Origin: Daphnia carinata | Lineage: Eukaryota | DNA length: 64,000 nucleotides | NCBI RefSeq assembly: GCF_022539665.2 | Contig: NC_081333.1 | Location: forward strand, 5,332,001 to 5,396,000 | Direction: 5' to 3' | Shown: piece after piece, positions 10,176 through 59,965 of the stretch | Layout: each line of letters opens with the position of its first letter | How positions within the stretch are numbered: position 1 is the first letter of the stretch | Translations under genes and position numbers: made by a program | Notes under the pieces: model-generated | Databases searched by the model: none | Told to the model about the DNA's origin: nothing | What the model saw: the letters and a program-made list of their open reading frames with translations, nothing else

Positions 10176-12718
10176 CCTGTAGAATGCTGTTCAGACGGGC
10201 TAGCGCGATGCTTTTATTTTACTCCAAGGTACGCCGGTTATCCTTAAACGGAAACAAAACCTCGTACCGACCGGAATCATCCCTCTTGATGGTACTCTGG
10301 TACATCTCCAGGAAGCTCGTATCTTCTGATTCTTGGGCCGTTACTCCCATGTGTTCTAAACTCCAAAACTCTCTAAAGTCAATCACGGACCGTTTGTTGT
10401 TTGCCGGTGACGCTAGTGCCGAAACTGTGTAGTCTCTCCCAGGGATCCAAAGATTATCCACCCGAGCTTACTCGCAAAAGTAACCGAGTCGTCGGGCCCT
10501 TGTACCGTCGCATTGGTCAGAATATGCCAATAATAATCGCACCCGATTATTATGTCAAATTCCTCCTTGCTATCGCCTTGTTCTGTTCGGTCGTCAGCGA
10601 GTTTCTCTTCTCGCCGCGACAGCATCTCTACCACCGTTGAATGAACCTTCGGTGTTGCCTTTGCTAGAAAATCCATCTCTGTCGCCCTACTTCGTATCTC
10701 CTCACCCGCCTGGGTTATTAGTTAGACATCGTATGATTTTGTTGTCTCCGTCCGGGCTTGAGCCAGCCCGAACGTGTTTATCCTTAGCTCCTCGGCCTCC
10801 TCTTTTGCCTTGGCTGCCTTTCGCCCGAGCTCTCGTTTGATATACGATCTCTGGCTCCCAGAGTCGATCAACCCGAGAACCGGTATTTTGCTTCCCGACT
10901 TCTCTTGAATGAATGCTGTGAATGTTGGTAGGCCGTTGGACGTCTGCGCCACGTTTATGTTGGTGTCAATAGGGACAGATCTGCCGACGGTTCGTTGTCT
11001 GGATAAGCATAACGCATGGTTGTGATCCAGACTGTTGCAGTTTCTGCACGGCACCTTTGCCATGCAGTGTTCGGTTCTATGTGACCGGCGCAAGCATTTC
11101 AGGCACCGGTTGTCCCTTTCGCACATTTCTCGTCGGGCTTGAGCCGTATTCACCGTACACCGGTGACGAATATGGTTTTGTTGACAGAAGAAACATGAGG
11201 CTTGCCGAGAGGCTCTGTCTTGTGTCTCCGTTCTCGAGTAGCGTCGCCGCTGGCCTTCTCGACGTGTTCTCTTCCATTTCCCTCAGCCGAATTTCCGTAT
11301 CTAATTCCTTGAGGATCATATCCAGCGTTGGTTGATCCCAATCAAACCATTTCTCCCTCTAACACCTCGAGGTGGGTGACTGGGGTAGAGCTTTCAGGAG
11401 ATCGCCCGCAATATACGAGCCGTAGCTCCCCATATCGACCTTGAGGCTCGCTAAGGCAAGTTTGGTGTTGGTGAGTCCGTCGAACATGGCTTGTAGCTGC
11501 TCGATAGTGGCGGACTCGCCTAATCGGCTTGCTATGAGGCTTCTCAGCTCATTCATGTAATGTGGTCTTTAATTTTTCGGGGTCTCCAAAACGGGACTCC
11601 AACCTCTCCATCGCTGCTTGAAACTGGTTATCGTCGAAGTGGAGGTGAGTTATGAGTTCCGAAACTTTCCCCCTTCAAGCTTAGGCGTAAGTATTGAAAA
11701 AAGACCTCCGTTAGTCTAACATCGAGGTCGTAGGTTGCCCAAATGGCTCTCCATCCTTTCCATGCGGTTTTGTCTCCATTAAAGGTGGGCAACGGTAATG
11801 CAGTTCTCACTACCGACGACTACGCCTCGATCTTTTTATTTTTTCTCTAAGTCTCTTCATTTTCTTGCGGAATTTATCTTCTAAATCCCGATCCTTCGCT
11901 CTCTCTACGACCGTGGATACTTGCGCCAGGCTTTCGTTGAGGACGACTATTGCTGTCCACCTGGCTTCAGCTCTGTCCAAGTATTGCTCCCTGTTTTATT
12001 TGTCGGTATCCACTAAAGCGATGCTTTTCAATAGCTCCTTGCGGATAAACTCCCTGTCTTCCGAGAGCTCGACCCTGGAACCCCCGATAGTCTCGGCCCG
12101 TGAGGACGAGCGAAGCGGTTCTGACCGCCTGATCGGGCTATTCTCCTGCGCCGGCATGCTTTCTTCTCGTAGATCTCTGATCTCGTCCTTTGCTTGATTA
12201 ATGATGTTTTTAAGTTCTTCCTTGACGGTCTCCACGATCATCGGGATATGCTCCTCCCAAGAGCAGCTTTGTCTGGTCTGCTCCATTAATTCGGCCGCGG
12301 AGTTTAACGCTCCGTTACTACGCTCATTGATAGTGTTAATTAACTCTGTCAGAGATTCAATCCTTTATTCTACTTCTTGGTAGCCCTGAATCTTGTTTAC
12401 TAACTGTTCTTTACGGTTCTGTATCGGGGCTTCTAGCTCTCCGCGGGCTCTTTCCCCTATCTCCCCTTCTAACTTGTCTAATTTTGCCTGAATCTGATGA
12501 GATGCCGCGGCCTGGGCTACCATCATATCCCTCAGCCGTCGTATCTCGGTTTCGACATGGCTCAATCGTTGTTCATTGTGAGAGTCTTCCGAAGAGCCCG
12601 AGTTTCTGCTGGTCGAGCTGCCGTCGGTATTTTGGGTCGGCTCGGACCTGACTTGTCGAGGGAAAAAACGGGATAATGTTTTGCTTTGATGTGCTTTATT
12701 AACGAAGTCCAACAACAA
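10176..12718 (-). pseudogene. gag: Bel/Pao gag-protease, multiple frameshifts
   Basis: ORF pieces are collinear with ORF 52691..55621. Confidence 0.9.
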
Positions 12719-12730
12719 GTATATAAAGTT

Positions 12731-13445
12731 TCATGTCGAATACGGCGAGCGGAAAATTTCGTCTTCGTCTGGCGAAGACAAGAGCCCGGTTTTCGCTAAT
12801 TTCCAAGCGAGTTGCTTGTTGGCCTATTCTTCTTCCACAATCCGCTTGCACTTTCTGGGAGTGTTGGCGGAAGATTCGGATTCTTTCGGGGTTTCCTGGG
12901 GCCCCGTCGCCGGCTTTGGTACATGTTCAGCCGGGGGTTTGGTTGAGGTTGATGACTTCGTGGCGATAGCGAAGCAGTTCCTGGGTTCAAGGAATATTGG
13001 GGCCGAGGTCCTTGACCTTGTCAACGCCTGCTCCCTCCTCAAGATTTCCTCTTTGTCCCTCCGAGGACGGCTAGTCTCCAGGAGGTATCTTGCCCGACTT
13101 TCGGCTTCTCCGGTTGCCTTCTGAGACGCCGAAATAACCTCTGAGTGCAACTCCTTCACTTGCTTTAGGGCCGCTAGCTGAGCCCTCTCTTGTTCGTTCA
13201 GGTATTGGTCAGGCGTATCCAAAGCCATCTGGATAGGCCGGGCGTAGGGGCCGGATCTTCTTGTGTGCGGTCCTCCCCGGTCTCTGCTCCGGGAATGGCA
13301 CTGGGATTCGGAGCTTTCGAAACACCCTTTTGGAATTTTCCGCTCAAGTTCCTTCCACAACTGTACGAGCGGGTGTCGGCGTCGAGAGGGGACTAGAACC
13401 GTGCGAACACGGCGTGCTGGTGATGTGTCAGGAGACTATCCGACA
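12731..13445 (-). pseudogene. Bel/Pao accessory ORF0 homologue with internal stops
   Basis: SDSLL..HAVFARF, LWKELERKIPKG, GPYARP, DTPDQYLNEQERAQLAALK and KLAKTGLLSSPDEDEIFRSPYST* align with 51865..52565. Confidence 0.8.
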
Positions 13446-13543
13446 CTGTAATGAGAAAAAAATGTTTTGGGTTTTATTGTTATTAAGGATATATATATTT
13501 TTGTGTTGTGTGCTTGTTGTTTTTTTTTATTCTGGGTCGGCGC

Positions 13544-13561
13544 CTCCGGTTCGAAGGACCA
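13544..13561 (-). promoter_or_regulatory. Primer-binding site, tRNA-Tyr type
   Basis: TGGTCCTTCGAACCGGAG, 2 nt after the LTR end. Confidence 0.85.
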
Positions 13562-13563
13562 AA

Positions 13564-14577
13564 TGTGGAATATCCTCCACCGTCGGAGACTGCCGACTCA
13601 GGGTTGTGATTTGGCGGGAGGTCTGGTGAGGCCTAGCCCTTGTAAGGAGCCAGCGTATTTTTAGACGGAGTCTCGATTGGGAGTTAATTGTAGACGGAAG
13701 GTCACTTATGGGGAACACGACCGGGAAGTGGGGCAGGTTTATGGGCCGTTACACATTACAGCGCCAAAAAGAACCGTACCTAGGAAAAAATGATGCGTAA
13801 ATGGAACAGGAAAAAAATATAAAATTACTTGCAGATTTAGCAGAGGAGGTTCCGGGGGTGCTTGAGATCTTGATGCGACGCGGCTGCAGGCGGGAAGCAG
13901 GAGGCGGACGACAACGTGGGACGGCAGCGGGACAGCGATAACGGCGGACACTCAAAGACACAACAAGGCACACCAAAAAACACTAGAAAAGGGCTACCTT
14001 AAATGAAGAGAAGTGAGCCGCTTCGGTGAAAAAATGTGTGTGTATTATCCGGGCCTGAGTGGCCCTCATATACCCATACAAAAACCCACGGTTGACAGAT
14101 AAACATAATTAATGGAACATAAGTTTAAACGCTGGTCCAGAGGCCGCCTCTGATTCTTCTTTCTTCTGACCGCGGGATAACCCCTTCCCTCGACACTTCA
14201 ACCTTCCCCTTTCCGATGCTCGAAGGGATTTTCCTGCGGCTACCATCCTTCTTCCTGCCGCTGGTTTTTAATATTCGATTCCTTCTTTCGTCGCTAGAGA
14301 CTGTTCCATGTAGATGGGAAAGTCGTTAACATATTTCAATATCATAATATGGGTTCCCGGTCTTTCATTATTCAATCATGCGGTGCGGTGGTCTTAACCC
14401 CCGGCCACGCTTACCCCTTAGTCCGTCGTACGGTGGGTCTGTTTTAAGTCGCGGAACTCGGCTGGATTTGTCCGCCTGGAGCTTCCGTCTCTCCGTCCAC
14501 AGGGTTTTCACCCAAATCTTCTGTTATTGGCCCGGCCTGGACCCCTGACTGTGGGTCGGACGTCAGATTTTCCGACA
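13564..14577 (-). repeat. Bel/Pao 5' LTR (~1014 bp)
   Basis: Minus strand TGTCGGAAAATCTGACG...TTCCACA; both ends are homologous to the LTR at 50697-51790. Confidence 0.9.
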
Positions 14578-14810
14578 CCCTATACTCCAGAACAAAATGG
14601 AGTATCAGAAAGACTCAATAGAACGGTGTTCGAATCAGCAAGAAGTATGCTTCATTCTTCTTCCCTGCCGCTAGAGCTCTGGGCTGAAGCATCCTACTGT
14701 GCTGTCTATTTGCTTAACCGTGTGGCAACCCAAGTGGTCGAAGGAAGAACACCCTATGATGTATGGAAAGGTGTGAAGCCCAATGTTCCTTACATCAGAG
14801 TTTTTGGATC
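14578..14810 (+). mobile_element. Ty1/Copia integrase fragment (apparent target of the Bel/Pao insertion)
   Basis: PYTPEQNGVSERLNRTVFESARSML..LWAEA..IRVFGS. Confidence 0.9.
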
Positions 14811-16039
14811 TACTCTGAAAAACAGGCAGGCAGAGGCTTCCTTTAAATGACTCCCTTATTCTACCCTTTTTGACTGTCGTCTGCATGGTAGTCGGGTATA
14901 TAGTGTGACTGTCTTCCGTCTCTATGATCAGTTATAATAAAAGCTTCACCACGCTACACTAGTTGTTCTAACGTCTAATTCGTTAATTTCAACAATATAT
15001 ATTGACATAATAATAATTGTAATATAATTTTGTAACTTCCTTGAAGAGTTATAAAATTAAATGGTTATTTTGTGTGCATCTGTATATATATGTTTTTTCT
15101 GCCATAGTTTCGCTTCACTTTTTTATGTAATGTATAATTTGCCTATTTCTAAATACTAAAGAAAAATTAACTAGATTGGGACTGCAGTACAATTCCACCT
15201 ATTTTAACGAAGTCACAACGATGTTTATGATGTATCAATAATACAGCAGACGCTTTAGTCGCACGGTAAATATTTATGCTTAACATATTCAGTCATAACA
15301 GTTTTGTTTCAAATGGCAAATATACAAGACAGAGTCACAGTGTAAACAAGGCACGACATGTGGAACACTTGAAATATTTGGCCAAGTCAGATTGTTTTTT
15401 AGTATTTTTACAAGCCCAGTGACACCATTCCAGGCAACTGTCACAGACCACGACATTGGGTGTGGTTTTATTAATATACTTCTTACAGTCACCACATATG
15501 GGATGTTTTTCTTAAAATTCACTGTAAGGAAGTATTATATTAAAGATTATTTTTGTTGTAAAAAATAACATGTTTCACTGCTAACTTACTCAAGCTTATT
15601 GTGGCTATCCAGGCTTCCTCCGTAAATAATTTCTGAAATTTTGGAAGTTCTACTACTACGTCCTCTTCTGTGAGTGTGCTGCTAACCATTTCAGGCATAG
15701 GGTTGATGTCATGTTCTTCCATTAACTATTTTAGCACGAAGAATTTCAGCTCTCGCTTCCAATAACCCATGTCAAAAACACCATTTCGGTTCAAAGGTAT
15801 ATTAAACTATTTTTTATAGAAAATTACTTAACATGTCTTACCTCTAGATTTCTCAGTTGCTGATTTGATGGTGAATCTGGTAGGTGTAATTTTATAGTTA
15901 TCGAGTGTTTTTGTTTTCCTTGGTCGCCCGGTTTTTGGCTTGAAGTTTGGAAGCTTGAGTTCAGCCAACTCAACATCTCTGATTTTTCGCTTTTTCGCTT
16001 GATCGGTTGCTACAAGGTCAACTGGAGCTGGATCTAGTG

Positions 16040-16203
16040 CCACATGAGCAGTAGCAAAAATTTCAGCAGTCGCAGGAGTTTCAGCAGACGCAAGAATTTC
16101 TGTAGTAGAATGAATTTCAACAGACGCAGGAGTTTCAGAAGACGCGGGAATTTCAGCATAAGCGGGAATTTCAGCAGACGCAGGAGTTTCAGCAGACGCA
16201 GGA
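16040..16203 (-). repeat. 18-bp coding minisatellite (PASAET/PASAEI units, about 9 copies)
   Basis: Repeated TTTCAGCAGACGCAGGAG-like units inside ORF 15828..16376. Confidence 0.8.
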
Positions 16204-16514
16204 TTGTTCATGAATTTGTGGAAGAAATCATCATCTTCCATTTCGGTAATGACTTCCTGTAATAGTGAATCCGTCGAATCAACTATCAACGCAATTTGTT
16301 GGATCATTTTAGGATCTTCGTTTATCATAGGCAAAAAATCTGGAATAGGCTGATCATCTGAAATAAAATAGTACACTTAATTTAATTGTTTAAGTTTAAG
16401 GGTAGCCGGTGAAATAGGACTGAAAATTTCCAGTTTCGCCCATTAGTTAAATGGTTCACAAAATTTTTTTTTCTTATCCTATTTTAATATTAATTGCAGG
16501 AGAACATGAACTAT

Positions 16515-19600: not shown

Positions 19601-20350
19601 CCACGCGGGCAGTGCATTTGGTTTGGGCGCGCGGCACTTAGCGGCCTTTTGGCCGAATTTTTGGCAATGATGACATTGGTGTCTTGATGGTAACCGCTTT
19701 TTCTCCATCCTTTTTTCTCTTGAGGGGAGCGACCTTCTCGCAATAAGGGCGCCTTCAGAGCGGTCGGGGGTGCTGCTTTTGCGTGCCTCGGCTTTCGCGA
19801 GGACTTTCACTTTCAGAGCGTCCGGTTTTGGGAGGTCATCACGTGACTCGATAGCACATCAAACGTTTTCGAAGCTCGTCGGAAGGCTGTATAGCAGCAT
19901 GATTGCTAACAGGTCGTCGTTTATTTCGAGCTTCATTTCGTGAAGTTTGTCGACCGCATTAAAACACTGGTCGAGGTGCTGTCTGATGTCGTCACCTTTT
20001 TTTAGTCGGGACAGGGTCAACCGCTTCAACAGCGTCGCTTTCTTTGCTGGGCCTTGTGACTGGTAGATGGACTCCAGCTTCAACCACACCTTCCGTGACG
20101 TTTTGCACTCTTTTATATGCTTTAATTCAGATAGAGACATCTACAAAATTATGTCGGACTTCGCCTTTTGATCGTCAGATTCCCACTTTCTCACAGTGGC
20201 GGAGCTATCAGGTGAAGCAATAGGTTCCGGTTTTATGACCGAGCCGCCTGCATATTGCCACTCGTCTGTCTTGATAAGCAACGCTTGCATTTGTACCTTC
20301 CACGTGTCGATATTGTCTTTGCTAAATGGCTTAATGTGGTACTTTGCCAT
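16675..20350 (-). pseudogene. Copia gag-pol with stops, frameshifts and an RNase H deletion
   Basis: CHHCQKFGQKAAKC, WCLDSGAT, WHERLGH, HSDICGP, QTDNGTEY, QMDVVTAYLNG, VYVDDI, RTKHIDTRHHF. Confidence 0.93.
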
Positions 20351-20435: not shown

Positions 20436-20449
20436 CTGGGCCCATAACC
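20436..20449 (-). promoter_or_regulatory. Copia PBS (internal tRNA-iMet fragment type)
   Basis: GGTTATGGGCCCAG directly after the LTR, as in Drosophila copia. Confidence 0.85.
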
Positions 20450-31660: not shown

Positions 31661-32640
31661 TTGATTAAGTTGGTTCCATCAAAGTTTAACAGGTATTTTT
31701 CTTCCGGTACATTAGGAGCTTGAGTCGTCAGATTTAATGCCATGTTTCCTGTTGGAGTTGCCCCTGGTGTTGCCTCTCGTGACGGAGCCTTGTAATTTGG
31801 AGATTCTGGATTTTGAAAAAAGTACCGGGCGATGTGTCTGGCCTTCTTGCAATAGAAACAAGTCGGTATCCCGTCTGTAGTGCGTCCTCTCGGCTTGTAT
31901 GGTCTTTTTCCTTGATCGTTTCTCTCATTTGCCATTAACTTTTCACAGGTGTCCTGAATTAATTCATGCATCGACTTCATAAACTCTGCCTGCTGTTCCG
32001 GATAGACTACGTTAAAGTTTGGTAGTTGCTCCTGAGGCTTCTGTGGTTCAACTGACGCCTCCATCCTCTTGCTTCCGCCATGACTGATGCTTCAGTATAC
32101 GATTTTGCCAGCGATAAAAATTCTTCACATGTTTTTGGTTTCAACGGATAAACTTTTTTAAGAAGCGCTGGTTGAAGGCCCCGAAACAGGTGCTCCAATC
32201 GGTGAGCTTCTGACATATTTGGGTCGACCAATCGACAAAGGTTGAGGATTTCGTAGTAGTTCCTAATGGCTGGTTCATCCACTCCCGGCGTTCTACTTTT
32301 GAGTCTGGTCTCCTGGAAGAGGCCGTAGTTATCTGGCTGAAATTCCTTTAAGAACATTGAACGTAGTCCAGATGTTGGAGGGATGGCCTGATCTCCTCCG
32401 GCAGCCGGTTGTATTGTAGTGTCTTGCCATCATCTTGAGATGGGATCTTCAAATTTTTTGGCTTTGTCAACAACGGGAATTTCCCTCTTCAACGATGGAT
32501 TTGGGGAAGGCGAAGTATCTTCCGAAACGCTTGACAGCTCTTGAAGCGGATGTAATCGTCGGCTGGGATCTCTTGGGCAACTGGGTAGCCGTGGATTTTT
32601 CTTCTTCTGCATCGGCTAAATGCAGCACACACACTTCGTC
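31660..32640 (-). pseudogene. gag: Gypsy gag remnant
   Basis: YYEILNLCRLVDPNM..LEHLFRGL; decayed knuckle CFYCKKARHIARYF. Confidence 0.85.
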
Positions 32641-32983
32641 ACTCACAAGTAACGTGCTACGTCTCACCAATTGCCACTTAACCACAAAAAATTTCGCTAC
32701 TCACGGGTAACGGACTACGACTTGGCAATTTCCAAAAACGTCGCTACTCACGGGTAGCGAATTACGACTCAACGATTGCCACTTAACCCCAAAAAAACTT
32801 CGTTACTCACGGGTAACGAACTACCATTTACTCGAACTACGAAATACTCCCCTTCCAGCTGACGTATCCGCGTATCTTCCTAACTACTGGTTCTTTTACT
32901 GATTTTCTTTCCCACGGCCCTAGCTACAGGAGCGGGTGATTCATCTCTGTGAAGAGATAACTACACCCCCTTTTTACGCGCGT

Positions 32984-33557
32984 AGGAGATGGGACACGGA
33001 ATGGGGAAAGCTGCCATGACAGATTTCGGCACACCATCTAGCGGCTAATTCCATCCCTTTCTCATTAGCAGACGAATTCCCTGCAAGCAAGCACTGTTAC
33101 AGGCGGCTGATTTGAAATGGTCACGGAGAGTTAGACAATACGCCAGTTAATAACACAAAAGAAAGTTTCATGACTAAAAGTAAATTGTAACTACTATTGT
33201 AAAAACTTGCAAACTGAGGCTGGTATTTTGCAGGATAAAATTTGATAATTAGCTAACAAGTTCCCTGGAGACCATTCAATGGAAACTGGAATGGAAAGTA
33301 TTTGTAAGCCAAAAATTTCAGAAAATCGACCCCTTTTGATTCTTCGAGTTTTCAACGCCCTCCGAGTCACAGAACTTTCGTTGTGTGTTTTTATCTGGCG
33401 AAATGTCCGACTTTCCTTTCCCATATTCAAATTAGCCGCCTGTCACATTGGTTCCTTGCAGGGAATTCGTCTGCTAATGATGAATGGAGGGAATTAGCCG
33501 CTAGATGCTGCCCCAAAGGTGTCATGGCGGCTTTAACACGGTCGTGTCCCATCTCCT
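32984..33557. mobile_element. Unclassified MITE with ~135-bp imperfect TIRs
   Basis: AGGAGATGGGACACG...CGTGTCCCATCTCCT; inverted TCATTAGCAGACGAATTCCCTGCAAG and CATCTAGCGGCTAATTCC blocks. TSD unclear. Confidence 0.8.
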
Positions 33558-33759
33558 TATCTCTGCCCGCGACAATATCTATGCGTAATATTCTAGAGGA
33601 GGAAGGGTGCACACTTACGAATAATTCTCGATCATGTAAGAACTCAACGTCAAGCAACGTAATCGCGTAAAAAAATCAGAAATAAGGTCATTACATTAAT
33701 GAGTTTAGGTATTTGCATACATAGCAGGGAAGCTCACTCCCACGGATCGCTGCTATGGC

Positions 33760-34465
33760 CAAAGTTTTCTCTTCTTCTAGCACGTTATCCCATGCTGGGA
33801 TGAACCCTCGGTAACTCGGAGGCAGAGTGCATATGATCTTAGTAATTAGTTACGCTTCAGACACTGGTTGTCCCATACTGCTGAGCTGTTGAGCGAGATT
33901 CTCAATTGATGAAATATGGCTCATGTCATCATGACCTGCTTGAAATTTGTAGTGGTAAAATCTTTGTATTACCACATACTTGTTTTCAGCTGCGTTCTTC
34001 AGGTGTTGGGATGTTAATCTGACCCAAATTTCATTTGCAGTCTTACACCGAAGGAGAGTGTTCTGCAGGTTTGGATCGATGGTCGATAGAAGTAGCCGAC
34101 GTGCCACTACATCCTTTTTCTTCCACTTGCTGATCTCTGGGCCATTAGTTAATACAAGTTGGCCTGCTTCAGGGTCATCGGCATTTGTTATGAGTCGTAG
34201 TATCTTGAACAAACGAACAAAGAAAAAAAAAGGAACATAGGTCAGCTTGACCTGATAAGAATCATTTCTCTAACGATAAATCTTACCGTTGTTTGATAGT
34301 GTGAATATGTCTTACCTCATCTGGGATACGGCTTGATCTATCAACTATGGATAGCACATCGTATTCTTCCAGTGAGACAAATAGACCAAGTTTCCAAAGT
34401 GGAAAATTAGTTCCATTGAACTTAATGATGTGGCTCACGTCTCTTGATCCTGAGCAGTTAATTTT
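33760..34465 (-). pseudogene. gag: Copia gag with a phase-0 intron at 34204-34315
   Basis: Exon 1 RDVSHIIKFNGTNFPLWKLGL..RIPDE; exon 2 ILRL..WKKKDVVARRLLL..TANEIWVRL..TLPPSYRGF. The start codon is decayed. Confidence 0.85.
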
Positions 34466-34494: not shown

Positions 34495-34508
34495 CTGGGC
34501 CCATAACC
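34495..34508 (-). promoter_or_regulatory. Copia PBS
   Basis: GGTTATGGGCCCAG. Confidence 0.85.
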
Positions 34509-34777
34509 TGGTGTAAAAAAATGAATAAGTCGTCACGTGTTTCACTTTCTTCTTTGATACAGTTGTACTTGGATAGACTTAGAAGAACAAGGGTTCAATT
34601 CTTAGAGTGATCAAAAATTAAAGTGAGGTAGAACTTCTAGGCCCCCTTTCTTCTAGGTAGGGGTTAAACAGCAACTTCTCTTCTAACAGACAAAAATGGG
34701 TTCTGACACCCGAAGGGTTTGGCAATCTGTAAATATGTGAGTATGTTAGAGTATTGATTGTTTGCATAAACTTAACA
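34509..34777 (-). repeat. Copia LTR (269 bp)
   Basis: Minus strand TGTTAAG...ACACCA, preceded by PPT TTGAGAGGGAA. Confidence 0.85.
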
Positions 34778-34805
34778 TTCCCTCTCAACCAAGTAATCCT
34801 TTAAC

Positions 34806-36570
34806 TTAGATGGTAATGTTGAAAATTCCAAGTTGATTGCCTAGGCTTCTAAATAGAGAGCCAGGCAGTGGTTTAGTGAAAATATCTGCGACTTGCTTTT
34901 TAGTATCAATGTAGGCAATGTGGATTTTTCTTAATTCGACTTGGTCACGAATAAAGTGATGTCGGATGTCGATATGCTTTTTTCTTGAATGGAATACAGG
35001 ATTCCGTATCAGTTGAATTGTGCTTTGATTATCACAGTAGAGCGATATTGGATCTAGGTTTGCCAAGTTGATGTGTTGTAGCTGGTGTTGGAGCCACACT
35101 GCCTCTCTGGTAGTTTCGCTTGCTGCTACATACTCGGCTTCAGTGGTGGATAGGGTGGTGGAGGTCTGGCGCTTACTACTCCATGCTACTGGGACTCCAT
35201 TAAAAAAAGTACCCCTTTGTGGAGCGTCGACGGTCAAGATCCCTTCCATAGTCAGCATCCCTGTATCCTTTGAGTGGTTGATAGTTCGCACTGAAATGCA
35301 GACCGTGTCGGCGTGTGCCCGAAAGATAGGCAAGTATCCGTTTGACGGCTTCCCAGTGTGCTGGCCCTGGGTGGTGGCCCTGGGAAAATCCATCTGCACT
35401 TGATTGCTTTACGAGCCGGTGGAAGTGGTAATGTCCCAAGTGTCGCTTTTGTTTAGTGAATTGTATTCGTCAAGAATTGCTGGTTGCCACTTGTATGCCT
35501 CATCGCATAGCATTGCTTCTTTAAAATGTTATGGCTCCAGGGTCTCCAGTGCATCAATAGCTTTCATGCTTACCCAAACTTTAGGTTTGCGATCACGAAG
35601 TGGATATCGTCGGTTCTCACATGTGGGTAGACATTCAGGGTTTGAGTGAGTCTCGTCTTCGATATTGCGATCGACAGTTAGTTGTTCAGTTGGTTCGTTA
35701 TTTACAATTTCACTGGCACCTGACGGTGGCTGTGGAATTGCACTGGATTGCACTGTCGTTGAAGGTAATTTCACTGTTTGTTGCTCCTTTTCAACCATGC
35801 TTTTAGTTTGGTTGAGCTCATCGAAAATAATATTGCGGACAATTTGTACGGCTTGTGACTCTGGAATCAAAACTTGGTAACCCTTTCAGGTCACAGAGTA
35901 ACCGAGAAACACGACTTCACGTCCTTTTGAATCAGGCTTCCGTCTGTTTGCATCTGGTACTAGTATTAATGCTTTTGAACCAAAAATGCGAAGATAATAC
36001 ATGTTTGGTTTACCTCCAGTCCACATTTCATATGGCGTGACTTTGCACGTGCTGGATAGGGTCCGGATTAGCGCATAGACTGCAAATGCTACAGCTTCTG
36101 CACATAGACGGACTGGTAGATTCTTTGCATGTAGCGAACTTCGTGCTGGTTCCATCACCGTTCGGTTCTCTCTTTCTGCGACACCATTCTGCTCAGGGCA
36201 GTAAGGGACACTCGTTTCATGGCGGATACCCTTCGACAAAAGCCAATTTTTCAGTTCCAGACTTTTGTACTCTCCGCCGTTGTCTGACCGAAGGGTTCGA
36301 ACAGTTTTCCCTGTTTCGGTATGCAGCCTAGCAATGTAGAGTTTAAACTGGTCAGCAACTTCAGACATGTTTTTAAGAAAAATTACTACTCGCCAGCCAC
36401 TGCAGTTGTCTTTAAAGAGGACGTAGTATCGAGCACCACTGGGTGATGCCTCGTGCATTGGACCACATATATCAGAATAAATAAGCTCTCCCACTTGTTT
36501 TGCTCTTACTCGTCCGATATGGAATGGAAAGCGGTGCATTTTTCCGTACACACATCCTGTACAGATAGAG
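34806..36570 (-). pseudogene. pol: Copia integrase plus RT tail and RNase H; most of RT deleted
   Basis: YSDICGP, RSDNGGEY, QNGVAER; STTEAEY, CDNQST, KHIDIRHHF, ADIFTK. Confidence 0.92.
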
Positions 36571-37518
36571 CTTGAAGTACCTTGGTCTGGAATTCTGGAT
36601 TGTGGAAAATAAATGAAATTTAGTGCTTGAAATCATACTGTAAAGTGTACTTAAAAACACGTTCACAATTTTTTCATTCAAATTGGTTGAGTAGTTTAGT
36701 CATAAACACCTTTTTGGAAAATATAAAAATTAAACGAAAAAAAAATTAAGGGCGAAAAACCGGACATCCGCTGTACCACATTAGACATGGTCTTTAAAAT
36801 TTGCTGCATTGAAGATACACGTTTCGAAAAAATAGTGTGACGTTCGGATTTCATTAAGCGATTTATGTATGTATTAAAAATATCATAAACGGAATTTAAT
36901 TTAATCGAAATTTGTCAATGATTGACGGGGGGTGTGGAATAGGCAAAGTAGCTTGAAAAAAATGAAAATAGGAGGGGCTTGTTAAGTATCAAGTATTTAT
37001 TTACTATCGATTACCATTATCAGAAGGAGATAGCAAACAACCCTTTGAAACTTTCAGCTTTCAGCCTTTGTTTAGGATTCTCTTTCGTAACTAAGCAACC
37101 CAAGCCCCACCCCAAAATATCGTTTGCGTCTGATATCACCCCCAAAACTGCCCAGTATCTCCCAACGGAAGATCATTTGTTAAAACGTTTATAAATTTTA
37201 ATCACTTGTCCTAGAAATGAAAACAAACCGGGGAATTTAAAAGGGAAGAAATAGCTTTTTTTATTATTACCAAAACTGGTTCATGGTGGTTTTCGAGCGA
37301 TATGAAAAATTGTAGAAGCCAAAAAAATGAAAAAGTAGCTGTTTTTAATTTTTGTGATAACTTTACGAATACTTTTAGTATATTTTTTAAGATTAAGGCC
37401 TAAGTGTGGAATAGAATTTCCCGTCACACAGTATTTTTAAAATTTTATTTCATAAATACCCTACCGAGTTATTGCGGCTGTCCAATCTGATACGTGTCCA
37501 GTTTGGTCCGCTCTCCCC
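36571..37518. mobile_element. One end of a TA-TSD TIR element (copy of part of 61489-62723)
   Basis: Ends GTCCAGTTTGGTCCGCTCTCCCC-TA. Confidence 0.65.
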
Positions 37519-38970
37519 TACAGGATTAAAATTAAAAGAAAAGGACATAATTCCCTTGCAGAGAGTATATATAGTTGTTGTTCGAATCCGTCAAATTTTC
37601 TGTAGAACTTTTACATAAGTCATTCGGGTCACTAATTTTATTTCATTTTTTTCTTTCCATTTTAAAGGGTAGGACTGGTTTTGCAAGTATTTATGACAAA
37701 CGCGAAGCTACTGAAGCTGCACCTAGCCTGTTGGCATAGTTTTGTCTCAAAAATTCTTAAACCTAATCAAGTTTTTCTTACGACAACTCGTCGATGAAGC
37801 TCTCGATGAAAATCGTTGTCAAAACCAATGAAAAAGTTTCTGCTCTTACAAAGATTTTGTGTAAATTTTGCTTTTTAAAATTTCTTGCAAAATTTTCACA
37901 TACAAAAACGAATAAAACAGAAAAGAAGACCATTAAACCATCGCTGATATTTTTTATGACACCAAAACAAATACTAAACGTATTTTCTAGCCATCTAGTA
38001 GGCTACATGGAAAAAGAACAGAATCAGTGGCATACCTCTCACTAAGGAACATCGGAAGCAATAATCGGTACTCCCCGTAATTCCTGTGCAATAGATATGT
38101 AGTCCAACCAGATGGTTGGATACAAGCACAACTAAACATAATGAAACAGTTACTACAATTCCATACAAGCATCAAGTCAAAATTAAATCAAGTAAACATG
38201 TTTTAGTCATTAACGATTCTTAAATATCTAAGAGTCCCGAATTGGTTTCGCGGTGTCTTCAGGAATAGCCTAGGCTGATAACTATCCTGCTGTTAGTTAA
38301 TTATTTTCTCTTTAAATTGTCATTCAAACAACGTAGAATAATACATGACTTTCAATTTTGAATTGGATGTATTTTCCAAACGGTGGCATATTAGTTCCAA
38401 TATGTTATATTATCAGAATAAGCTTTCTTACCATCAGCAGCTAACACATCGCAGGAATCTAAAGTTCTGAAGTGCTGAAGCTTACTTTTATCCTGCTGTA
38501 GCTACACATTAATTTATCATCGTAGCTATCAAGACATAGACAAGAAAAGTGAACTTGGATGTACCGACCGCCGTTTTTTCTTACTCCTGAGGAGGTTGCC
38601 ATACATTGGCTGCTTCGCAGCTGTTGCGTCACACGCACGAATAACCTCTAATATTTTCAACCATGACATTAGAAATATTTCCCAGTTATTAAAAATTTCA
38701 GAGAAGAAACCATGACTGCAGTAGTTTCTCGCCATCATTGACGTATTAAGCATTTCGGGTTTATTTCTGTTTTCTGCGGAATGTGCCAAATAATGATTGT
38801 CCTAGTGTTGTTTGGTTATTATTTCACTTAAATTTTGTAGCAGCCGAGGGAGACCGTAAGACTTATAATTTTTAAACTGAGAAATTGTCGAACTTACGGT
38901 GCCATGTATTTCACTATGCAGCCGTAATCTGACTGAGACTAAAGGCGTCATGCTCGTCGTACGCGCGCAC

Positions 38971-39305: not shown

Positions 39306-40290
39306 ATGTTCTGGAAATGGCGGGTAGGTTTCAGTGGAATACATTATTACGGCCTTTGACGGCATTTCTGAATACGGATTCAGGAACTCCTGTGTAAAGG
39401 AAGTTTTCATCCCGTTCGACTTCTTCAATTAGATTGTAAGGAAGATAGGCACAATAATAATAAGTACCCGATGCAGTTTCTATTCGCCTATTACATGAAT
39501 ACTGTCTAACTGCGGGAGTTAATTATTCTATTAGCGCAATGAAACGACCGTAAGCTATCGGAGCTGTCTTTCGTTCGTCGCTTTCCGAGAAAGGCTGTAG
39601 AATGGGTTTCTTAGGTGATGAAACGGAATTCTTGACCGGTGGCGTGTTCTACTGCTTTTTCTAGAAGTAGGGGTTGCTGATTTTTACTATTCGAGCTTTT
39701 CCCCAGTTTGAAGAAAACTTTAAAGACTTTCAAGTACTTGGAATTAAAAAAACGGTTCTAGCCTCTAGATTATGAGAGAATATTTGGCATATCCAAGCAA
39801 ACATTTTACGATGTATAAGGAATATGAAGTATTTTAAAATTAATTTTCCTAAAAAAAGCTGTCGGACGACTGAAAATATGGAAATGCCAGTTTAAAAAAC
39901 AATGTTCAATCATATTTGTTTAATTTGTGATTCTATTTAATTCTTTTACCGAATAGATGGGAAAATTTATTTCACGAATGCAACAGATGCCGGATGTTAC
40001 TGACTCCCGTGCAAAGAGTCGTAACAAAGAAGAGAATGAGGGATGAGTGTTGATAAAGATGAAATGAAGATGACGATGATAAAACAAAAAGGGACTACTT
40101 TATTTCCGGACTTGGAAATAAAAGGGTGTGATGACACGCTTGATTGGGGAGACGGGAGCAAAACTGAAAAGACGAGACTAAGGCTAGACAACTTGTCTAG
40201 AAAACGAGACGGACGAGAAAAAGTGACTGTCTGGGTCAACTCTGAATTACTAACTACCCTTCCCGTGGAAAAGGGGTAAAAAAAAAAAAA

Positions 40291-50072: not shown

Positions 50073-50696
50073 GAAACTTCATTGACGCTTGCGAGCTCGC
50101 AAACAACTCTGTGATGAAGTTGGTTTTTTAGAACCTGAGTAGAGTGTAAGTGATCGCTGCCATATTTCGTATTTCCTTATTGTTTCTGCGTGGAACGCAC
50201 CAATAATGTAGTTCTGTTGAATTTCGTTTTTCTTTTTTGTTAAATTCTAAATAGATTTTTGTTTCCATCCAGTTCTAATCCAGCGGGTAATATAACATTT
50301 CGTTTGTGTAATTAGTTTCTACGAAACTTAAGTACAACTTAAGGGAACTATTGTATTCTAGAAAAAGCACGAGTTCTAAGCCATGAAAGTACCAAACAAA
50401 TATGTAGCGTACATCATATCATATAGTTCATTGGAATTTAAAAACGACTGGTGGGCGGGTGTCAAATGAGCTAGTTTATTTGAACACCTGTTAACGCACC
50501 TGAGTAAGCGCCCCAGAACCCTATCGACCCGAAATTCGTTTTTGTCATTGCAGGCTTTAACGTGTACGACACTTTGTGTTTAATGGTATTGCGTTGGAAT
50601 TGTGGCAGTTGGAATTAGTACAATTTTATTGTCGCTTGTTTTGGTACTCATCAAAATGAAGTGTTGTTACATTTTTCTTTTAATAGTGGTAGTGGG

Positions 50697-51790
50697 TGTC
50701 AGAAAATCTGACGGCCGATCCACAGTCAGCCGGTCGATCTGAGACCGGGAAAGAAAACACAGGACCGAAGAACGAAGGGACAGAAACCCTAGGCGGAGAA
50801 ATCCAGCCGAGGTCCGCAGACTACAAAGACACGCCGTTAGACGAACGAGACAGTAAACTTGGCCGGAGGAAAAGACCGATACGCCGTTTATTGAAACCGG
50901 GGGATCCGGACTATGATATCCAAATAACCGAACGTGTTTTACCTATATATGAAGAGGAGATCTGGCGAGAAAGAATCGAACCACCTACTAGGGACTCAAA
51001 CGGAAGAAATAGGGATAACTGCCGCCAGAAGTAACCTTGGAACATCGGGAAGGGGAGATAGAGATATCACAGGAAGAGATCATCCCGCGGTTTGAAGAAT
51101 GAAGAGTTAGCGGCGACCTCTGGTCCAACGTTGAAATCAATGTTCTAAAGTGATAAATTATCTGTCAACAGCGCGTGTTGTAGAGGTATAAAGAGGGGCC
51201 GAATAGGCCAAGAAAATACACTCACATTTCGAACACCAAGGAGGTCTATTGGTAATTATTGCTCCCACTTACTTGTTTCTTGTCGCGCTTGTTGTTTGCT
51301 GCCTGCCATCGTCTTTGCCGTTCGTCGCTTGCTGCCTGGTTGCCGCCCTTCGTCTCCACCAGCCGCCGATTCGTCGCTCGCGCCACTTACCGCCGCCGGT
51401 CACCGCTCGCTGATTGCTCGCTGTCTCAACGATCTTCGTTGCCAGCACCCGCCGCCGAGCCGTAGTCCGCGCCATTCCACTCTGACGTCCAACTTCGCCG
51501 CTACATCTCTTCTTCCAACAGTAAGTCCTTGCTAATACTTTACCTTTGTTACCCTTGATTAATATAGGTGTGGAACTGACCTTGCTGCCGGGTGTCCAGC
51601 CAGGAGAAGCCCGCTTGCCACGATAGTACCCCTAGACGGGCCGTACTATCCTTCTTTTCTACCGGCGATTCTGATACGAATCTACCGTCAACATACGCTG
51701 GCCCCTATAACGGGCTAGGCCAATCAATTTGTTCTTTCTCACTATCATTTCTCTGAGTCGGCAGTCTCCGACGGTGGAAGAAATTCCACA
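50697..51790 (+). repeat. 5' LTR (1094 bp)
   Basis: TGTCAG...TCCACA; TATAAA at ~51187. Confidence 0.97.
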
Positions 51791-51792
51791 TT

Positions 51793-51810
51793 TGGTCCTT
51801 CGAACCGGAG
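51793..51810 (+). promoter_or_regulatory. PBS, tRNA-Tyr type
   Basis: TGGTCCTTCGAACCGGAG. Confidence 0.9.
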
Positions 51811-51864
51811 TCCGCGACCCAAAAAAAAAACGACAAACAAACACCCCTATTTTTTCCATTACAG

Positions 51865-52565
51865 TGTCTGACAACCTCCTGTTGCAGCACCAAACAGCGG
51901 TCTTCGCCCGCTTCCAGTTTCTCTTGGACACCGATACCCGCAGCTACGAGCTCTGGAAGGAGCTGGAGAAAACCATCCCTAGAGGGGTATTCCGGAAGCT
52001 CCGCATCCCAGAGCCCTTTCCTGAGCAGAAATCAGGGGGAAAATCGACCGAGAAAAAGACCCGCATCACCCCGTACAGCCGGCCCGCACCTCTCTGTACC
52101 ATCGAGACCCCAGACCAATACCTCGACGCACAGGAGCGAGCCCAGCTAGCCGCGTTACAAGCCGTCCGGGACTCCAGCCCCGAGGTGATATCCGGGGCCC
52201 AGAAAGCCCGTGAAAACGCTGAGAAGCGGAGACAATTGCTGCTAGAAACCAGCCGCCTCCGCCGAGACAAGGAGAGCATTAGACGCAGAGAAGAAGCACT
52301 CGCCCAAGCTCGGAGTCTCACACCGGTGATAACCCCCGAGGCCCAGCCCGGACCTTCTCGACCATCCACTGCAACCGTACCAACCGCCGCCCCGGAGACT
52401 CCAAAACGCTCCAAGCACCGTACGCCCACTACCCCCCGGAAACTGCGAAAATTTGTCCAAGAGGAGAAAGTGGACAAACACCTAGCCCGAAAATTCGCCC
52501 GCACCGGGATCATCTCTGCTTCCGACGAGGAGGAAATCCTGAAGTCACCCCCTTTCTCCGCCTGA
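51865..52565 (+). CDS. Accessory ORF0 (233 aa, unknown function); predicted start codon formed by the splice 51520^51865
   Basis: Uninterrupted frame with no genomic ATG, conserved in the diverged element at 12731-13445. Confidence 0.72.
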
Positions 52566-52690
52566 AGAAAATAATAATAATAATAATATAATAATAATAA
52601 ATTAATTAATTAATTATATATATATATAAAAAAAAAAAACACACAAACTCTGTTCCTGTTGAGAAATATATAGTTAAAGCGCACCAATAC

Positions 52691-55600
52691 TTGAGTCAAA
52701 TGTCCGTACGCCAGGTTAGACCCGCACGACCGGCTGAAACCTCCACTTCATCCGATGATTCTCCGAGTGAACAACGGTTAAGCCAGGTGGAGACCGAAAT
52801 CCGCCGTATGAAAGAGATGTGGGCCACTCAAGCCGCGACGAACCGCCAAACCCAAAACAACATAGAAGAATTAGGTCGGACCGTACAAAAGAAAGCCGAC
52901 GAAGATGACCTAGAAACACTCACCGAAAGAGTCCATCAGTTAGAACAAAAATTACTCGAGTATAACGAGTTCGAGAAAAAACTAGAAACGATCACAGGCC
53001 TGATAGACGCCATAAACATCAGAAGCAACGACCCGTTACAGTCAGCGGCCGAAATCATAGACCGGGCCAATCAAGCTACCTCGTGGGAAATTCACATTCC
53101 GAGGATAGTGGACAGCCTTAAAGAAGACATCAAGGAGATCATCAACCAAGCAAAAGAAAGCCTCAGAGAAATACGGGACGACGATAGTCTCCCCGACCTG
53201 GAGCCCAGCCCGTTCCGCCCGGCCGAACCCCTTCGTGCTTCATCAAGAGCCGATAACAATAACGGGAGTGCCAAGTCAGAACTTCTAGAAGACCGAGACC
53301 TCATTCTTAAGGAACTTCGAGAAAGCATCGGACTAATGGACGCCGACCGGGTCAACCGAGAAAAATACCTCGACATCGCCGAAGCACGATGGCTTGCCAT
53401 CATCGCCATCCACGAGAAGCTAGCTCTGGTCTCTACAACTAAGGATAGAGCGAAAGACCGCCAAATAGAGGACAACTTCCGCGAAAAAATGAGGAGGATG
53501 CGGGAAAGAAACAAGAAATTCGAAACCCAGCCATCAGTTGCAACAAGAGCCGCGCTACCTCTACCCATCTTCAGCGGAGAAATCACCGCCTGGAAGGGAT
53601 GGAGAACCATCTGGGCAACATATGACCTAGACCCCCGGTTATCAGAGGTAGAAAAATTCCAATACCTCCGCCTCAGCCTGAAAGGGAAAGCCGCCGAACT
53701 CGTCGCCCATCTACCCTTCGACGACAATCAATACCGGGCAGCAATGGAGAGATTAGAATCTCGCTTTGGGGACCCCGAGAAGCTCAAGACCCACTATATC
53801 AACGAGCTACGACTCCTCGTTGCAACACGGCTGGGAGAATCCGCAACAACCGAGCAGCTCCAATCACTACTCGACGGACTTAACAACGCCAAACTAGCGC
53901 TGATAAGCCTCAAAATAGACATGGAGAGTTACGGAGCTTATATATCGGGAGATGTCCTGAAAACCCTACCACGATCACTCACCTCTAGATGGCTTAGGGA
54001 AAAGTGGTCCGACAGAGAAGAACCCTCGCTGGACATGATCCTAAAGGAACTCAGCCTGGAAATCCGATTACGAGAAAGAGAAGAAACTACGGCTAGACGG
54101 CCAGAACCACCGGCCCTTCCACGGGGGGAGACCCAGGATCGATCCACCCGTACATCCTGCTTCTTCTGCCAGCAAAATCACACTCATCACCGGTGTACCA
54201 TGAACACCCCACAGGCCCGACGAGACATGTGCGAGCGAGATAACCGCTGCTTTAAATGCCTAGGACGTTCACACCGGACAGAACACTGCATGGCACGAGT
54301 ACCATGCAGAAACTGCAACAGCCTGGATCACAGCCCGGCGCTATGCTTGGTCAGACAAAGACCCGCTAATAATCCGTTCAGAAACCAATCACCCCAACGA
54401 TCGACCGGGAGAACGGTCACGATTGACACCAACATCAACATGGCCCAAACATCAACAAGCCTTCCCACCTTCACGGCCTATATTAAGGGAAGAGAGGGGG
54501 ACAATATACCTGTCTTAGGACTGATTGACTCCGGCAGTCAACGAACCTTCATCAAACGCGGTATTTCCAGAAGAGCAGACCGCACGAATGAAGAGACCGA
54601 GGAGATTAGAATCAATACCTTCGGGCTAACCCAGGCCCGCATGGAAATAACGACATCCTGCGACATCTGGTTGGTCTCCCAGACGGGCGACGAGTTAAAA
54701 CTACGGGCAACCGAAATGGAGTTTCTCGCTAAAGCCACCCCGAGGATTCCCTCCACGGTGGCGCAACTAGTGTCTCAGCGGCGAGAAAGACTCGCCGATA
54801 ACAGGGAAAATCTAGACGACAGCAAGAAGGAGTTCGACATCATCATCGGGTGTGACCATTATTGGCGCATCCTGACCCACGAAACGCTGCAAGGATCCGA
54901 TGAATCGGTAGCCTGTGCCAGCAAACTTGGATGGATTATCTTCGGAGCTCCCAGCGAGGCTATCCACGTATCCACACTAACGGCGCCGACTAACAGCAGC
55001 AGATCCGTCATAGACTTCAAGGAATTTTGGAGCCTAGAGCATATGGGGGTAACGGCACAAGAAGCCGATGAACCCGGATTCTTAGAGGCCTATCAACGCT
55101 CCATTAAACGCGACGAAGACGGCCGATGTGAAATCCTCTTCCCGTTTAAAGACAACAGAAAAACCATGGAGACTAATAAAGGAGTGGCGCTGGCACGTCT
55201 CAACTGCCTGTTACACCGGATGAAGGGAGACGATCGCCGAGCATACCACGAGATCTTCCAACAATACATTGAGAGAGGATACATTGAAGAAGTGGACGGG
55301 ACATACACCGGCATCTGCACCTACTTACCACACAGACCGGTCATCAAACAAGAGGCCACATCAACCAAAATTAGGCCTGTGTTTGACGGTTCAGCACACC
55401 TTCAAGGTAGACCCAGCCTCAACGACTTGCTCGAAACAGGGCCCAATTTAAACCCAGAATTACTAGCGGTCCTGCTCCGATTTCGGCGATACAAGATCTC
55501 CTGGATGGCCGACATCACCCAGGCCTTCCTGCAGATCGGAATCCAGAAAGAACACGCCCAGATAGTTCGGTTTATTTGGGTCAGAAACCCCGACGACAAC

Positions 55601-58588: not shown

Positions 58589-59568
58589 AAAGACACGCCG
58601 TTAGACGAACGAGACAGTAAACTTGGCCGGAGGAAAAGACCGATACGCCGTTTATTGAAACCGGGGGATCCGGACTATGATATCCAAATAACCGAACGTG
58701 TTTTACCTATATATGAAGAGGAGATCTGGCGAGAAAGAATCGAACCACCTACTAGGGACTCAAACGGAAGAAATAGGGATAACTGCCGCCAGAAGTAACC
58801 TTGGAACATCGGGAAGGGGAGATAGAGATATCACAGGAAGAGATCATCCCGCGGTTTGAAGAATGAAGAGTTAGCGGCGACCTCTGGTCCAACGTTGAAA
58901 TCAATGTTCTAAAGTGATAAATTATCTGTCAATAGCGCGTGTTGTAGAGGTATAAAGAGGGGCCGAATAGGCCAAGAAAATACACTCACATTTCGAACAC
59001 CAAGGAGGTCTATTGGTAATTATTGCTCCCACTTACTTGTTTCTTGTCGCGCTTGTTGTTTGCTGCCTGCCATCGTCTTTGCCGTTCGCCGTTCGCCGTT
59101 CGTCGCTTCCTGCCTGGTTGCCGCCCTTCGTCTCCACCAGCCGCCGATTCGTCGCTCGCGCCACTTACCGCCGCCGGTCACCGCTCGCTGATTGCTCGCT
59201 GTCTCAACGCTCTTCGTTGCCAGCACCCGCCGCCGAGCCGTAGTCCGCGCCATTCCACTCTGACGTCCAACTTCGCCGCTACATCTCTTCTTCCAACAGT
59301 AAGTCCTTGCTAATACTTTACCTTTGTTACCCTTGATTAATATAGGTGTGGAACTGACCTTGCTGCCGGGTGTCCAGCCAGGAGAAGCCCGCTTGCCACG
59401 ATAGGACCCCTAGACGGGCCGTACTATCCTTCTTCTCTACCGGCGATTCTGATACGAATCTACCGTCAACATACGCTGGCCCCTATAACGGGCTAGGCCA
59501 ATCAATTTGTTCTTTCTCACTATCATTTCTCTGAGTCGGCAGTCTCCGACGGTGGAAGAAATTCCACA
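58461..59568 (+). repeat. 3' LTR (1108 bp)
   Basis: About 7 substitutions and a 14-bp (GCCGTTC)x2 indel versus the 5' LTR (hand count). Confidence 0.97.
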
Positions 59569-59965
59569 GTGGGTACCACGGTCGCTTCCTCCGAATTCAA
59601 GCCAAATCCTGATGTAGACGAGCGTTGGGAACGTTTCAAGGTAAACATCCCTTCCACCTGCCTCTCCTAAGATATACTTCTTTGGTGTCGAACTTTTGGC
59701 CGAATGCTTATTCGTTTCAGGTAAAATTTCGAAAAACGTATGCTAGTGATGCTGAAGAACTGAAAAGACGGGAAATTTGGGAGAGGAATATCGGCAACAT
59801 CGACAAACACAATGAAGAGTACAAGGAAGGCAAACATTCCTACAAGCTGGCAGAGAACAAATACGCTGACATGGTATAAACTAATATAAATCAGATGTAC
59901 AGTATGTTACTACCCCTCTTTAAAAAAAATGCCCCCTATCAACGTATAGCTAGTTAGCAACGTTA

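What the first reader, a model, noticed from the sequence alone, without database searches (positions are those of the whole stretch)
34204..34315. Canonical spliceosomal intron inside a Copia gag
Seen on the minus strand: ..CCA GAT GAG|GTAAGA..GCTGAC..TTCCTTTTTTTTTCTTTGTTCGTTTGTTCAAG|ATA CTA CGA. The intron is 112 nt, not a multiple of 3, and contains an in-frame TAA. Removal joins the two gag halves in phase 0. The other Copia here (20141-20350) is uninterrupted in the equivalent region. Known: introns are normally purged by reverse transcription; exceptions such as Ogre need unspliced genomic RNA. Inference: the whole polyprotein would need spliced mRNA while unspliced RNA is packaged, so host splicing could act as an on/off switch.
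Basis: partly seen in the sequence, partly recalled or inferred. Interest (0 to 1): 0.8.

Follow-up and report, generated by a model that had tools for sequence, protein, structure and literature searches.

The report
Water-flea retrotransposons that keep gag introns
The intron in this dead jumping gene sits at the same spot in dozens of distant relatives, most of which cannot be read into protein with it in place, so these elements would make their proteins from spliced RNA but copy themselves from unspliced RNA, the reverse of the known Copia splicing arrangement.

Summary
The 112-nt GT-AG, phase-0 segment is real, but this copy is dead: no start codon, an internal stop, RT deleted. The finding is a clade trait. 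A metagenome DNA scan gave 103 matches; of 55 with both gag halves, 47 carry a GT-AG intron, all phase 0, 30 at the window's exact codon, and 8 are contiguous. Intron lengths run 57-1,407 nt, exon 1 is under purifying selection, 12 of 16 long intron-bearing loci have an open frame of over 1,100 codons behind the gag intron(s), and the unspliced frame is blocked in 42 of 47 cases. Eighteen loci have a second gag intron, which the window lacks. Intron-less elements are nested among intron-bearing ones, consistent with precise loss by reverse transcription. Named relatives are Daphnia gene models. Splicing itself was not seen: no RNA run was listed. The on/off-switch idea is untested. Known Copia splicing makes Gag-only RNA; here splicing would be needed for all protein. 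I found no description in the papers searched. Earlier scan notes report gag introns in a different class (Ngaro), on other DNA.

The parts
35436..36566 (-). Integrase and linker of the upstream, 5'-truncated Copia unit (contains stops)
   Evidence: rve and SH3 Pfam hits; 42% identity to the long ORF of relative L159
34809..35458 (-). Start of RT, a large deletion (equivalent to L159 residues 914-1181), then RNase H in two frames
   Evidence: tblastn map; translation
34778..34790 (-). Polypurine tract
   Evidence: purine-rich stretch directly before the LTR's TG
34509..34777 (-). Single LTR, 269 nt, TG..CA, between the upstream pol and the downstream gag
   Evidence: no second copy in the window
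34495..34508 (-). Primer-binding site; the same 14-mer precedes the other Copia at 20449. Its reading as a half-tRNA-iMet site of copia type is recalled, not tested
34316..34462 (-). gag exon 1 (49 codons; no ATG at the position where relatives start)
   Evidence: 72-78% identity to Daphnia models P0003, P0004, P0008
34204..34315 (-). gag intron 1, site A (35 codons after the conserved F), phase 0, 112 nt
34281..34286 (-). Second donor-like GTAAGA inside the intron, out of frame with the acceptor
   Evidence: the D. magna model P0004 extends 10 codons into its intron
33742..34203 (-). gag exon 2; in-frame stop at 33852-33850; homology ends near 33742
   Evidence: PF14223
33935..33936 (-). Empty site of the second, phase-1 gag intron that close relatives carry

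Best explanation
The segment is one instance of an intron-like GT-AG sequence kept at fixed codons inside gag across a clade of Ty1/copia retrotransposons, likely of Daphnia, whose single Gag-Pol frame would be translated from spliced mRNA while unspliced RNA would be packaged and reverse-transcribed. Shown: position, phase, splice signals, blocked unspliced frame, open downstream polyprotein, conserved exon 1, extra introns, nested intron-less relatives. Inferred: that the host spliceosome removes it; that unspliced RNA is the usual template for reverse transcription (otherwise the intron would be gone after one cycle); that intron-less elements arose when a spliced RNA was copied instead. 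My preferred reason for persistence, inferred and untested: the early stop takes unspliced RNA off ribosomes and so sorts transcripts into a message pool and a genome pool, with the intron also free to hold family-specific cis signals.
For: 47 of 55 loci with both gag halves have a GT-AG intron; with phase left free all 47 and the window came out phase 0, at codon F+35 (30 loci and the window), F+37/39 (5) or F+27/28 (12). In 940 shuffles of the intron sequences only 14 gave the same donor, 2 the same pair, 352 of 722 pairs were phase 0, and the mean signal score was -4.6 against 5.1. 18 of 23 loci without a scored exon 2 still have their best donor at these codons. Exon 1 pN 0.00-0.24 against pS 0.06-1.20 in 21 pairs I chose from the tree. 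12 of 16 long intron-bearing loci have an open frame of 1,117-1,546 codons behind the last gag intron; read unspliced, 14 of 15 long ones stop within 33-124 codons. Raw ORFs of the window's own family read into the intron and stop (P0032 cluster, 13+3+3 contigs). L141 (open 1,403 codons, no intron) and L175 sit beside intron-bearing elements with 100/99 and 100/100 support and keep the same codon count across the site.
Against: No junction read or cDNA was seen. No two-LTR copy with a target-site duplication was found: L104 has two LTRs 97% alike but unmatched flanks, and most contigs look like collapsed assemblies. Intron 1 is open in frame in 5 of 47 cases, and L164 has a 1,395-codon unspliced frame, so splicing is not obligatory everywhere. 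Eight loci are contiguous; the tree does not resolve whether L123, L124, L130 and L170 lost the intron or never had it. No shared structure or motif was found across introns. The scan pattern favours short leaders and one PBS, so the 47-of-55 share is not a genome-wide rate.
Confidence: 0.85

Rival explanations
1. Splicing is real and is a regulated switch: the host (for example its piRNA pathway or tissue-specific splicing factors) sets the spliced-to-unspliced ratio and so turns the element on or off. This adds to the best explanation rather than replacing it.
For: Splicing would gate all protein in 42 of 47 cases; the window's intron has a second, out-of-frame donor and a weak AAG acceptor.
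Against: No expression data. Signals across the set are ordinary host-like ones (A at +3 in 45 of 47; CAG 32, TAG 14). Intact intron-less relatives exist (L141).
Confidence: 0.25
2. The introns persist passively: particles capture RNA before it is spliced, as suggested for Penelope-like elements, so introns are gained and lost without benefit to the element.
For: Five different gag positions are occupied (sites A, B, two second-intron sites, a further one in L126), lengths vary 25-fold, interiors are not alike between families, and losses recur.
Against: All introns seen lie in the first 160 or so codons and none in the long pol frames of the 12 open loci; site A survives between families only 30-50% identical in protein; none of 6 covered loci lacking intron 1 has a second intron, while 17 of 35 with intron 1 (window included) lack it.
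Confidence: 0.3
3. The segment is not spliced; protein starts at an internal AUG after it, and exon 1 is an upstream ORF.
For: An in-frame Met follows within 0-59 codons of the acceptor in most loci; no RNA evidence excludes it.
Against: Exon 1 encodes the conserved N-terminal Copia gag motif under purifying selection; phase and codon position are fixed; both ends carry splice signals far above shuffles; intron-less relatives have exon 1 and exon 2 in one frame with the same spacing.
Confidence: 0.05
4. A secondary insertion unique to this copy, or a domesticated host gene that gained introns.
For: The window copy is dead, and no second copy could be read from its own genome.
Against: The same site is occupied in 30 other loci, which have a PBS after an LTR-like CA end and run into complete pol frames; no duplication or terminal repeat flanks the segment and it has no other copy in the window.
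Confidence: 0.02

Closest known systems
Spliced Ty1/copia elements: Drosophila copia, barley BARE1 (PMC3735527), Arabidopsis EVADE and relatives (PMC5580714); passages read
   Same: Single gag-pol frame; host spliceosome acts on element RNA; spliced and unspliced pools have different jobs.
   Different: There the intron lies at or after the end of gag, splicing is optional and yields Gag-only RNA, and the unspliced RNA is the Gag-Pol message. Here the intron lies about 40-50 codons into gag and blocks the unspliced frame, so splicing would be needed for Gag and Pol alike.
Ogre (Ty3/gypsy, legumes); seen only through PMC3735527 and PMC12786077 passages; the primary paper was not held
   Same: An intron is kept in genomic copies and spliced from transcripts.
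   Different: Other superfamily; described as splicing between ORFs, not inside gag; no series of gains and precise losses described in what I read.
Penelope-like elements (PMC8557442; passages read)
   Same: Retroelements that retain introns after retrotransposition; the paper calls the significance unknown.
   Different: Non-LTR elements with another copying mechanism; here retention occurs in an LTR element that is expected to copy itself in cytoplasmic particles.
CoDpu (PMC3587641) and CoBran (PMC11889832) Copia clades; Daphnia pulex survey PMC2996953; passages read
   Same: Daphnia or branchiopod Copia elements of about 5 kb with short LTRs.
   Different: None of the three texts mentions splicing (0 hits each); 'intron' occurs 0, 0 and 5 times, the 5 concerning introners and references. 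Whether this clade is CoDpu or CoBran was not tested.
Cer1/CERV of C. elegans (PMC10309623; abstract read)
   Same: An LTR element that must export unspliced RNA while also making spliced mRNA.
   Different: In Cer1 unspliced RNA is the Gag and Pol message and splicing makes an accessory export protein; no accessory ORF was looked for or seen here.

Membership tests
Ty1/copia LTR retrotransposon | Copia-type gag and domain order gag, protease, integrase, RT, RNase H | tested here: met
   PF14223, rve, SH3; long loci align end to end with a 1,309-residue clade polyprotein; integrase precedes RT and RNase H in the window
Ty1/copia LTR retrotransposon | LTR with TG..CA ends, PBS after it and polypurine tract before it | tested here: met
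   only one LTR in the window; two LTRs in L104
Ty1/copia LTR retrotransposon | Target-site duplication around an intron-bearing two-LTR copy | tested here: inconclusive
   one testable locus, L104, flanks do not match; it may be a mosaic assembly
Major (U2) spliceosomal intron | GT-AG ends, donor consensus, pyrimidine tract, frame restored | tested here: met
Major (U2) spliceosomal intron | Removal from RNA | not testable with these tools
   no run listed, so no reads could be laid
copia/BARE1/EVADE-type spliced Copia | Intron at or after the gag end; spliced RNA codes Gag only; unspliced RNA codes Gag-Pol | tested here: not met
   intron is early in gag and unspliced frame is blocked in 42 of 47
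CoDpu / CoBran clade | RT phylogeny with the published reference elements | not tested
   no reference sequences were obtained; the supplement of PMC2996953 could not be read
Introner or MITE insertion | Repeated similar sequence, terminal repeats, target duplication | tested here: not met
   no second copy in the window; interiors 43-70% alike between diverged neighbours and lengths 57-1,407

The most novel reading that the evidence does not exclude
A whole animal Copia clade has inverted the usual logic of LTR retroelements: its genomic RNA is untranslatable by design, every protein comes from spliced mRNA, and the particle selects unspliced RNA in trans well enough that introns have survived, and new ones have been gained at five gag positions, through a long radiation, with dated natural intron-loss controls inside single families.
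Probability: 0.6. Interest if true: 0.88.

Novelty: new variant of a known kind. Interest (0 to 1): 0.78.

Why it matters
An intron placed in an LTR retrotransposon is normally lost in one cycle; that was the classic proof of the RNA intermediate (PMC12786077, passage read). A clade that keeps frame-blocking introns inside gag must separate message from genome and pick the unspliced RNA, which makes an old question (how an element chooses between translating and packaging its RNA) testable with public Daphnia RNA data. Close pairs with and without the intron (L141 is 96% identical to an intron-signature family) are natural controls for intron loss by reverse transcription. In practice, annotation that expects one uninterrupted ORF will call these elements broken or truncate their Gag.

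Tried and rejected
No genome is held for this window, so copies in its own genome could not be counted. The one run search listed none; this is no evidence on expression. Protein-seeded scans found nothing in viral contigs or metagenome contigs; a PBS scan of viral contigs gave 99 loci, none with a Copia hit. I looked for a shared packaging or dimerisation signal in 43 non-redundant introns: no 6-mer exceeded the family-wise null (best z 6.3, null maximum up to 7.6), longest palindromes were only slightly above shuffles (6 of 200 as high), mean folding z was -0.67 over 40 introns, the window's -0.93. CACATGT, chosen after looking, occurs in 9 of 43 (null mean 3.2, maximum 11 in 200): a weak lead only. 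The Atlas search returned generic Copia gag clusters and no taxon information. The first acceptor called for L126 was wrong; corrected to a 91-nt phase-0 intron followed by a further break, and L126 was left out of later counts of 47 that include the window. The 100% terminal matches of 42-127 nt on several contigs may be assembly overlaps and were not used as ages. PMC6673714, PMC12810828 and PMC13148404 (passages) were irrelevant.

Full report
The observation. On the minus strand, 34315 to 34204 is 112 nt, starts GTAAGA, ends TTCAAG, holds a branch-like GCTGAC and a pyrimidine tract, and has in-frame stops at its positions 31 and 52. It is the only GT..AG placement among 25 shifts of a 112-nt gap, and the only one of 127,776 112-nt windows with a GTRAG start, an AG end and a 75% pyrimidine tract. 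The 3' half is Copia gag (PF14223). The other Copia in the window is contiguous but only 21% identical.

The copy. Read on the minus strand the locus is: integrase (36566-35436), a largely deleted RT and RNase H, polypurine tract, one 269-nt LTR (34777-34509), PBS, then gag, which has no ATG where relatives start, a stop at 33852-33850 and ends near 33742. Pol before the LTR and gag after it fits the junction of two tandem units sharing an LTR (inference). The D. pulex model P0003 matches both the gag and the linker behind the integrase, so the two parts are one family. This copy makes no protein, spliced or not.

The family. Protein searches gave nine relatives at 63-82% identity to exon 2. 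Models from D. pulex and D. sinensis join the exons at the window's junction; a D. magna model runs 10 codons into its intron with a peptide like the window's. Gene models are predictions, not evidence of splicing. More telling are raw ORFs: the P0032 cluster (3 proteins on 13, 3 and 3 contigs) reads exon 1, enters the intron with Val and stops in or beyond it. Others read into a second insertion further down gag that the window lacks, and the P0001 and P0002 clusters are contiguous at both sites; whether those come from DNA or RNA is unknown. Of 20 representative proteins looked up, 5 carry an organism name and all 5 are Daphnia, which is the basis for calling the host likely Daphnia.

The clade. 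A profile search (1,320 hits, best 150 listed) showed many relatives at 30-53% identity with in-frame Val..Gln insertions, or ORFs that begin in an unrelated peptide ending in Gln, at the same place. To see DNA I scanned metagenome contigs with the PBS plus the first gag motif: 103 matches on 102 loci. Twenty-five were dropped for lacking an exon-1 profile score of 20 or being too short; 23 had no scored exon 2; 55 had both halves. Of these 47 carry a GT-AG intron and 8 are contiguous. Lengths are 57-1,407 nt, median 81. Shuffling the introns gave the same donor in 14 of 940 trials and a mean score of -4.6 against 5.1. Eighteen of the 23 partial loci have their best donor at the same codons. 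The loci are related and some are near-duplicates, so these are not independent draws.

More introns. Of 56 sequences examined (window included), 14 did not cover the second region, 1 (L126) has a break at a further site, 23 are contiguous and 18 have a second intron of 61-91 nt: 11 in phase 1, all with site A, and 7 in phase 2 four codons earlier, all with site B.

The elements look functional. Twelve of 16 intron-bearing loci with 3.5 kb or more downstream have one open frame of 1,117-1,546 codons behind the last gag intron; 4 are broken. Read without splicing, 14 of 15 intron-bearing loci with 4.3 kb or more stop within 33-124 codons; L164 stays open. Over all, intron 1 shifts or stops the frame in 42 of 47. 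Exon 1 shows pN of 0.00-0.24 against pS of 0.06-1.20 in 21 hand-picked neighbour pairs (uncorrected, often saturated), much like exon 2, so it is translated in frame with the rest. Against: the only two-LTR locus, L104 (97% identity), has no target-site duplication.

Losses. A gag tree (56 rows, 92 columns; L126 and short loci left out) puts all 37 intron-bearing rows, six intron-less loci and five proteins in one clade (98/98) with an unresolved base; the window pairs with intron-less P0001 and then with L159 and L169, which have both introns. A longer tree (23 rows, 659 columns) places intron-less L141 beside L104 (100/99) and L175 beside L132 (100/100). L141 has an open 1,403-codon frame and is 96% identical to P0042, P0184 and P0185, of which the two inspected begin in intron-like peptide at the acceptor. 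Codon counts across the site match intron-bearing neighbours. I ran no test of monophyly and the root is by midpoint, so 'loss' rests on nesting. The window's missing second intron is most simply one more such loss.

Mechanism. Shown: the architecture above. Inferred from it and from how LTR elements replicate (established knowledge): spliced RNA would be the message for Gag-Pol; unspliced RNA would be the usual template, since copying spliced RNA deletes the intron for good; intron-less elements record the exceptions. Why the intron persists is open. I favour sorting of RNA into translated and packaged pools; passive retention and a regulated switch remain possible. I found no shared motif or fold in the introns.

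Literature. Nine searches found no description of introns inside Daphnia or other animal Copia gag. Passages of PMC3735527 and PMC5580714 describe Copia splicing that yields Gag-only RNA; PMC3735527 (2013) calls BARE1 the only case besides copia itself. PMC2996953 and PMC3587641 have no occurrence of 'intron' or 'splic'; PMC11889832 none of 'splic'. Earlier scan notes describe gag introns in Ngaro-type elements of fungi and animals; I did not check them, and they concern another class.

Verdict. Real, clade-wide, and a new variant of spliced LTR retrotransposons with the usual logic reversed; RNA confirmation is the missing step. Interest 0.78.

Noticed in passing
L143, L144, L158 (intron 1, 343-354 nt): These introns are filled with short imperfect repeats, 5-13 per intron, each holding the palindrome ACATGT; CACATGT or its reverse occurs in 9 of 14 introns longer than 140 nt. 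It has the form of an E-box (recalled); chosen after looking, so a weak lead for an enhancer or dimerisation site.
   Followed up: partly
window 36346-38482 and 60529-62661; 39327-39887 and 59966-60525: Inverted duplication at 98-99% identity that includes the first 220 nt of this Copia's integrase fragment.
   Followed up: no
window 50696-59574: BEL/Pao element with 98% identical 1.1-kb terminal repeats and long frames of 1,003 and 555 codons; an older relative lies inverted near 10178-14580.
   Followed up: no
window 32984-33557: Inverted repeat arms of about 190 nt at 80% identity just beyond the point where gag ends; possibly a small DNA transposon.
   Followed up: no
protein P0003 (D. pulex model): The model leaves gag at the second-intron site and resumes in the linker behind the integrase: a model artefact, an internal deletion, or a long splice like that of Drosophila copia.
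   Followed up: no
L126: Site-B intron of 91 nt plus a further break about 18 codons after the conserved W, a possible fifth intron position.
   Followed up: partly
window about 59720-59880, + strand: Short frame resembling a cathepsin propeptide fragment (resemblance recalled, not searched).
   Followed up: no
window 16032-16211, 32629-32839: An 18-nt tandem repeat and a 47-59-nt repeat array.
   Followed up: no
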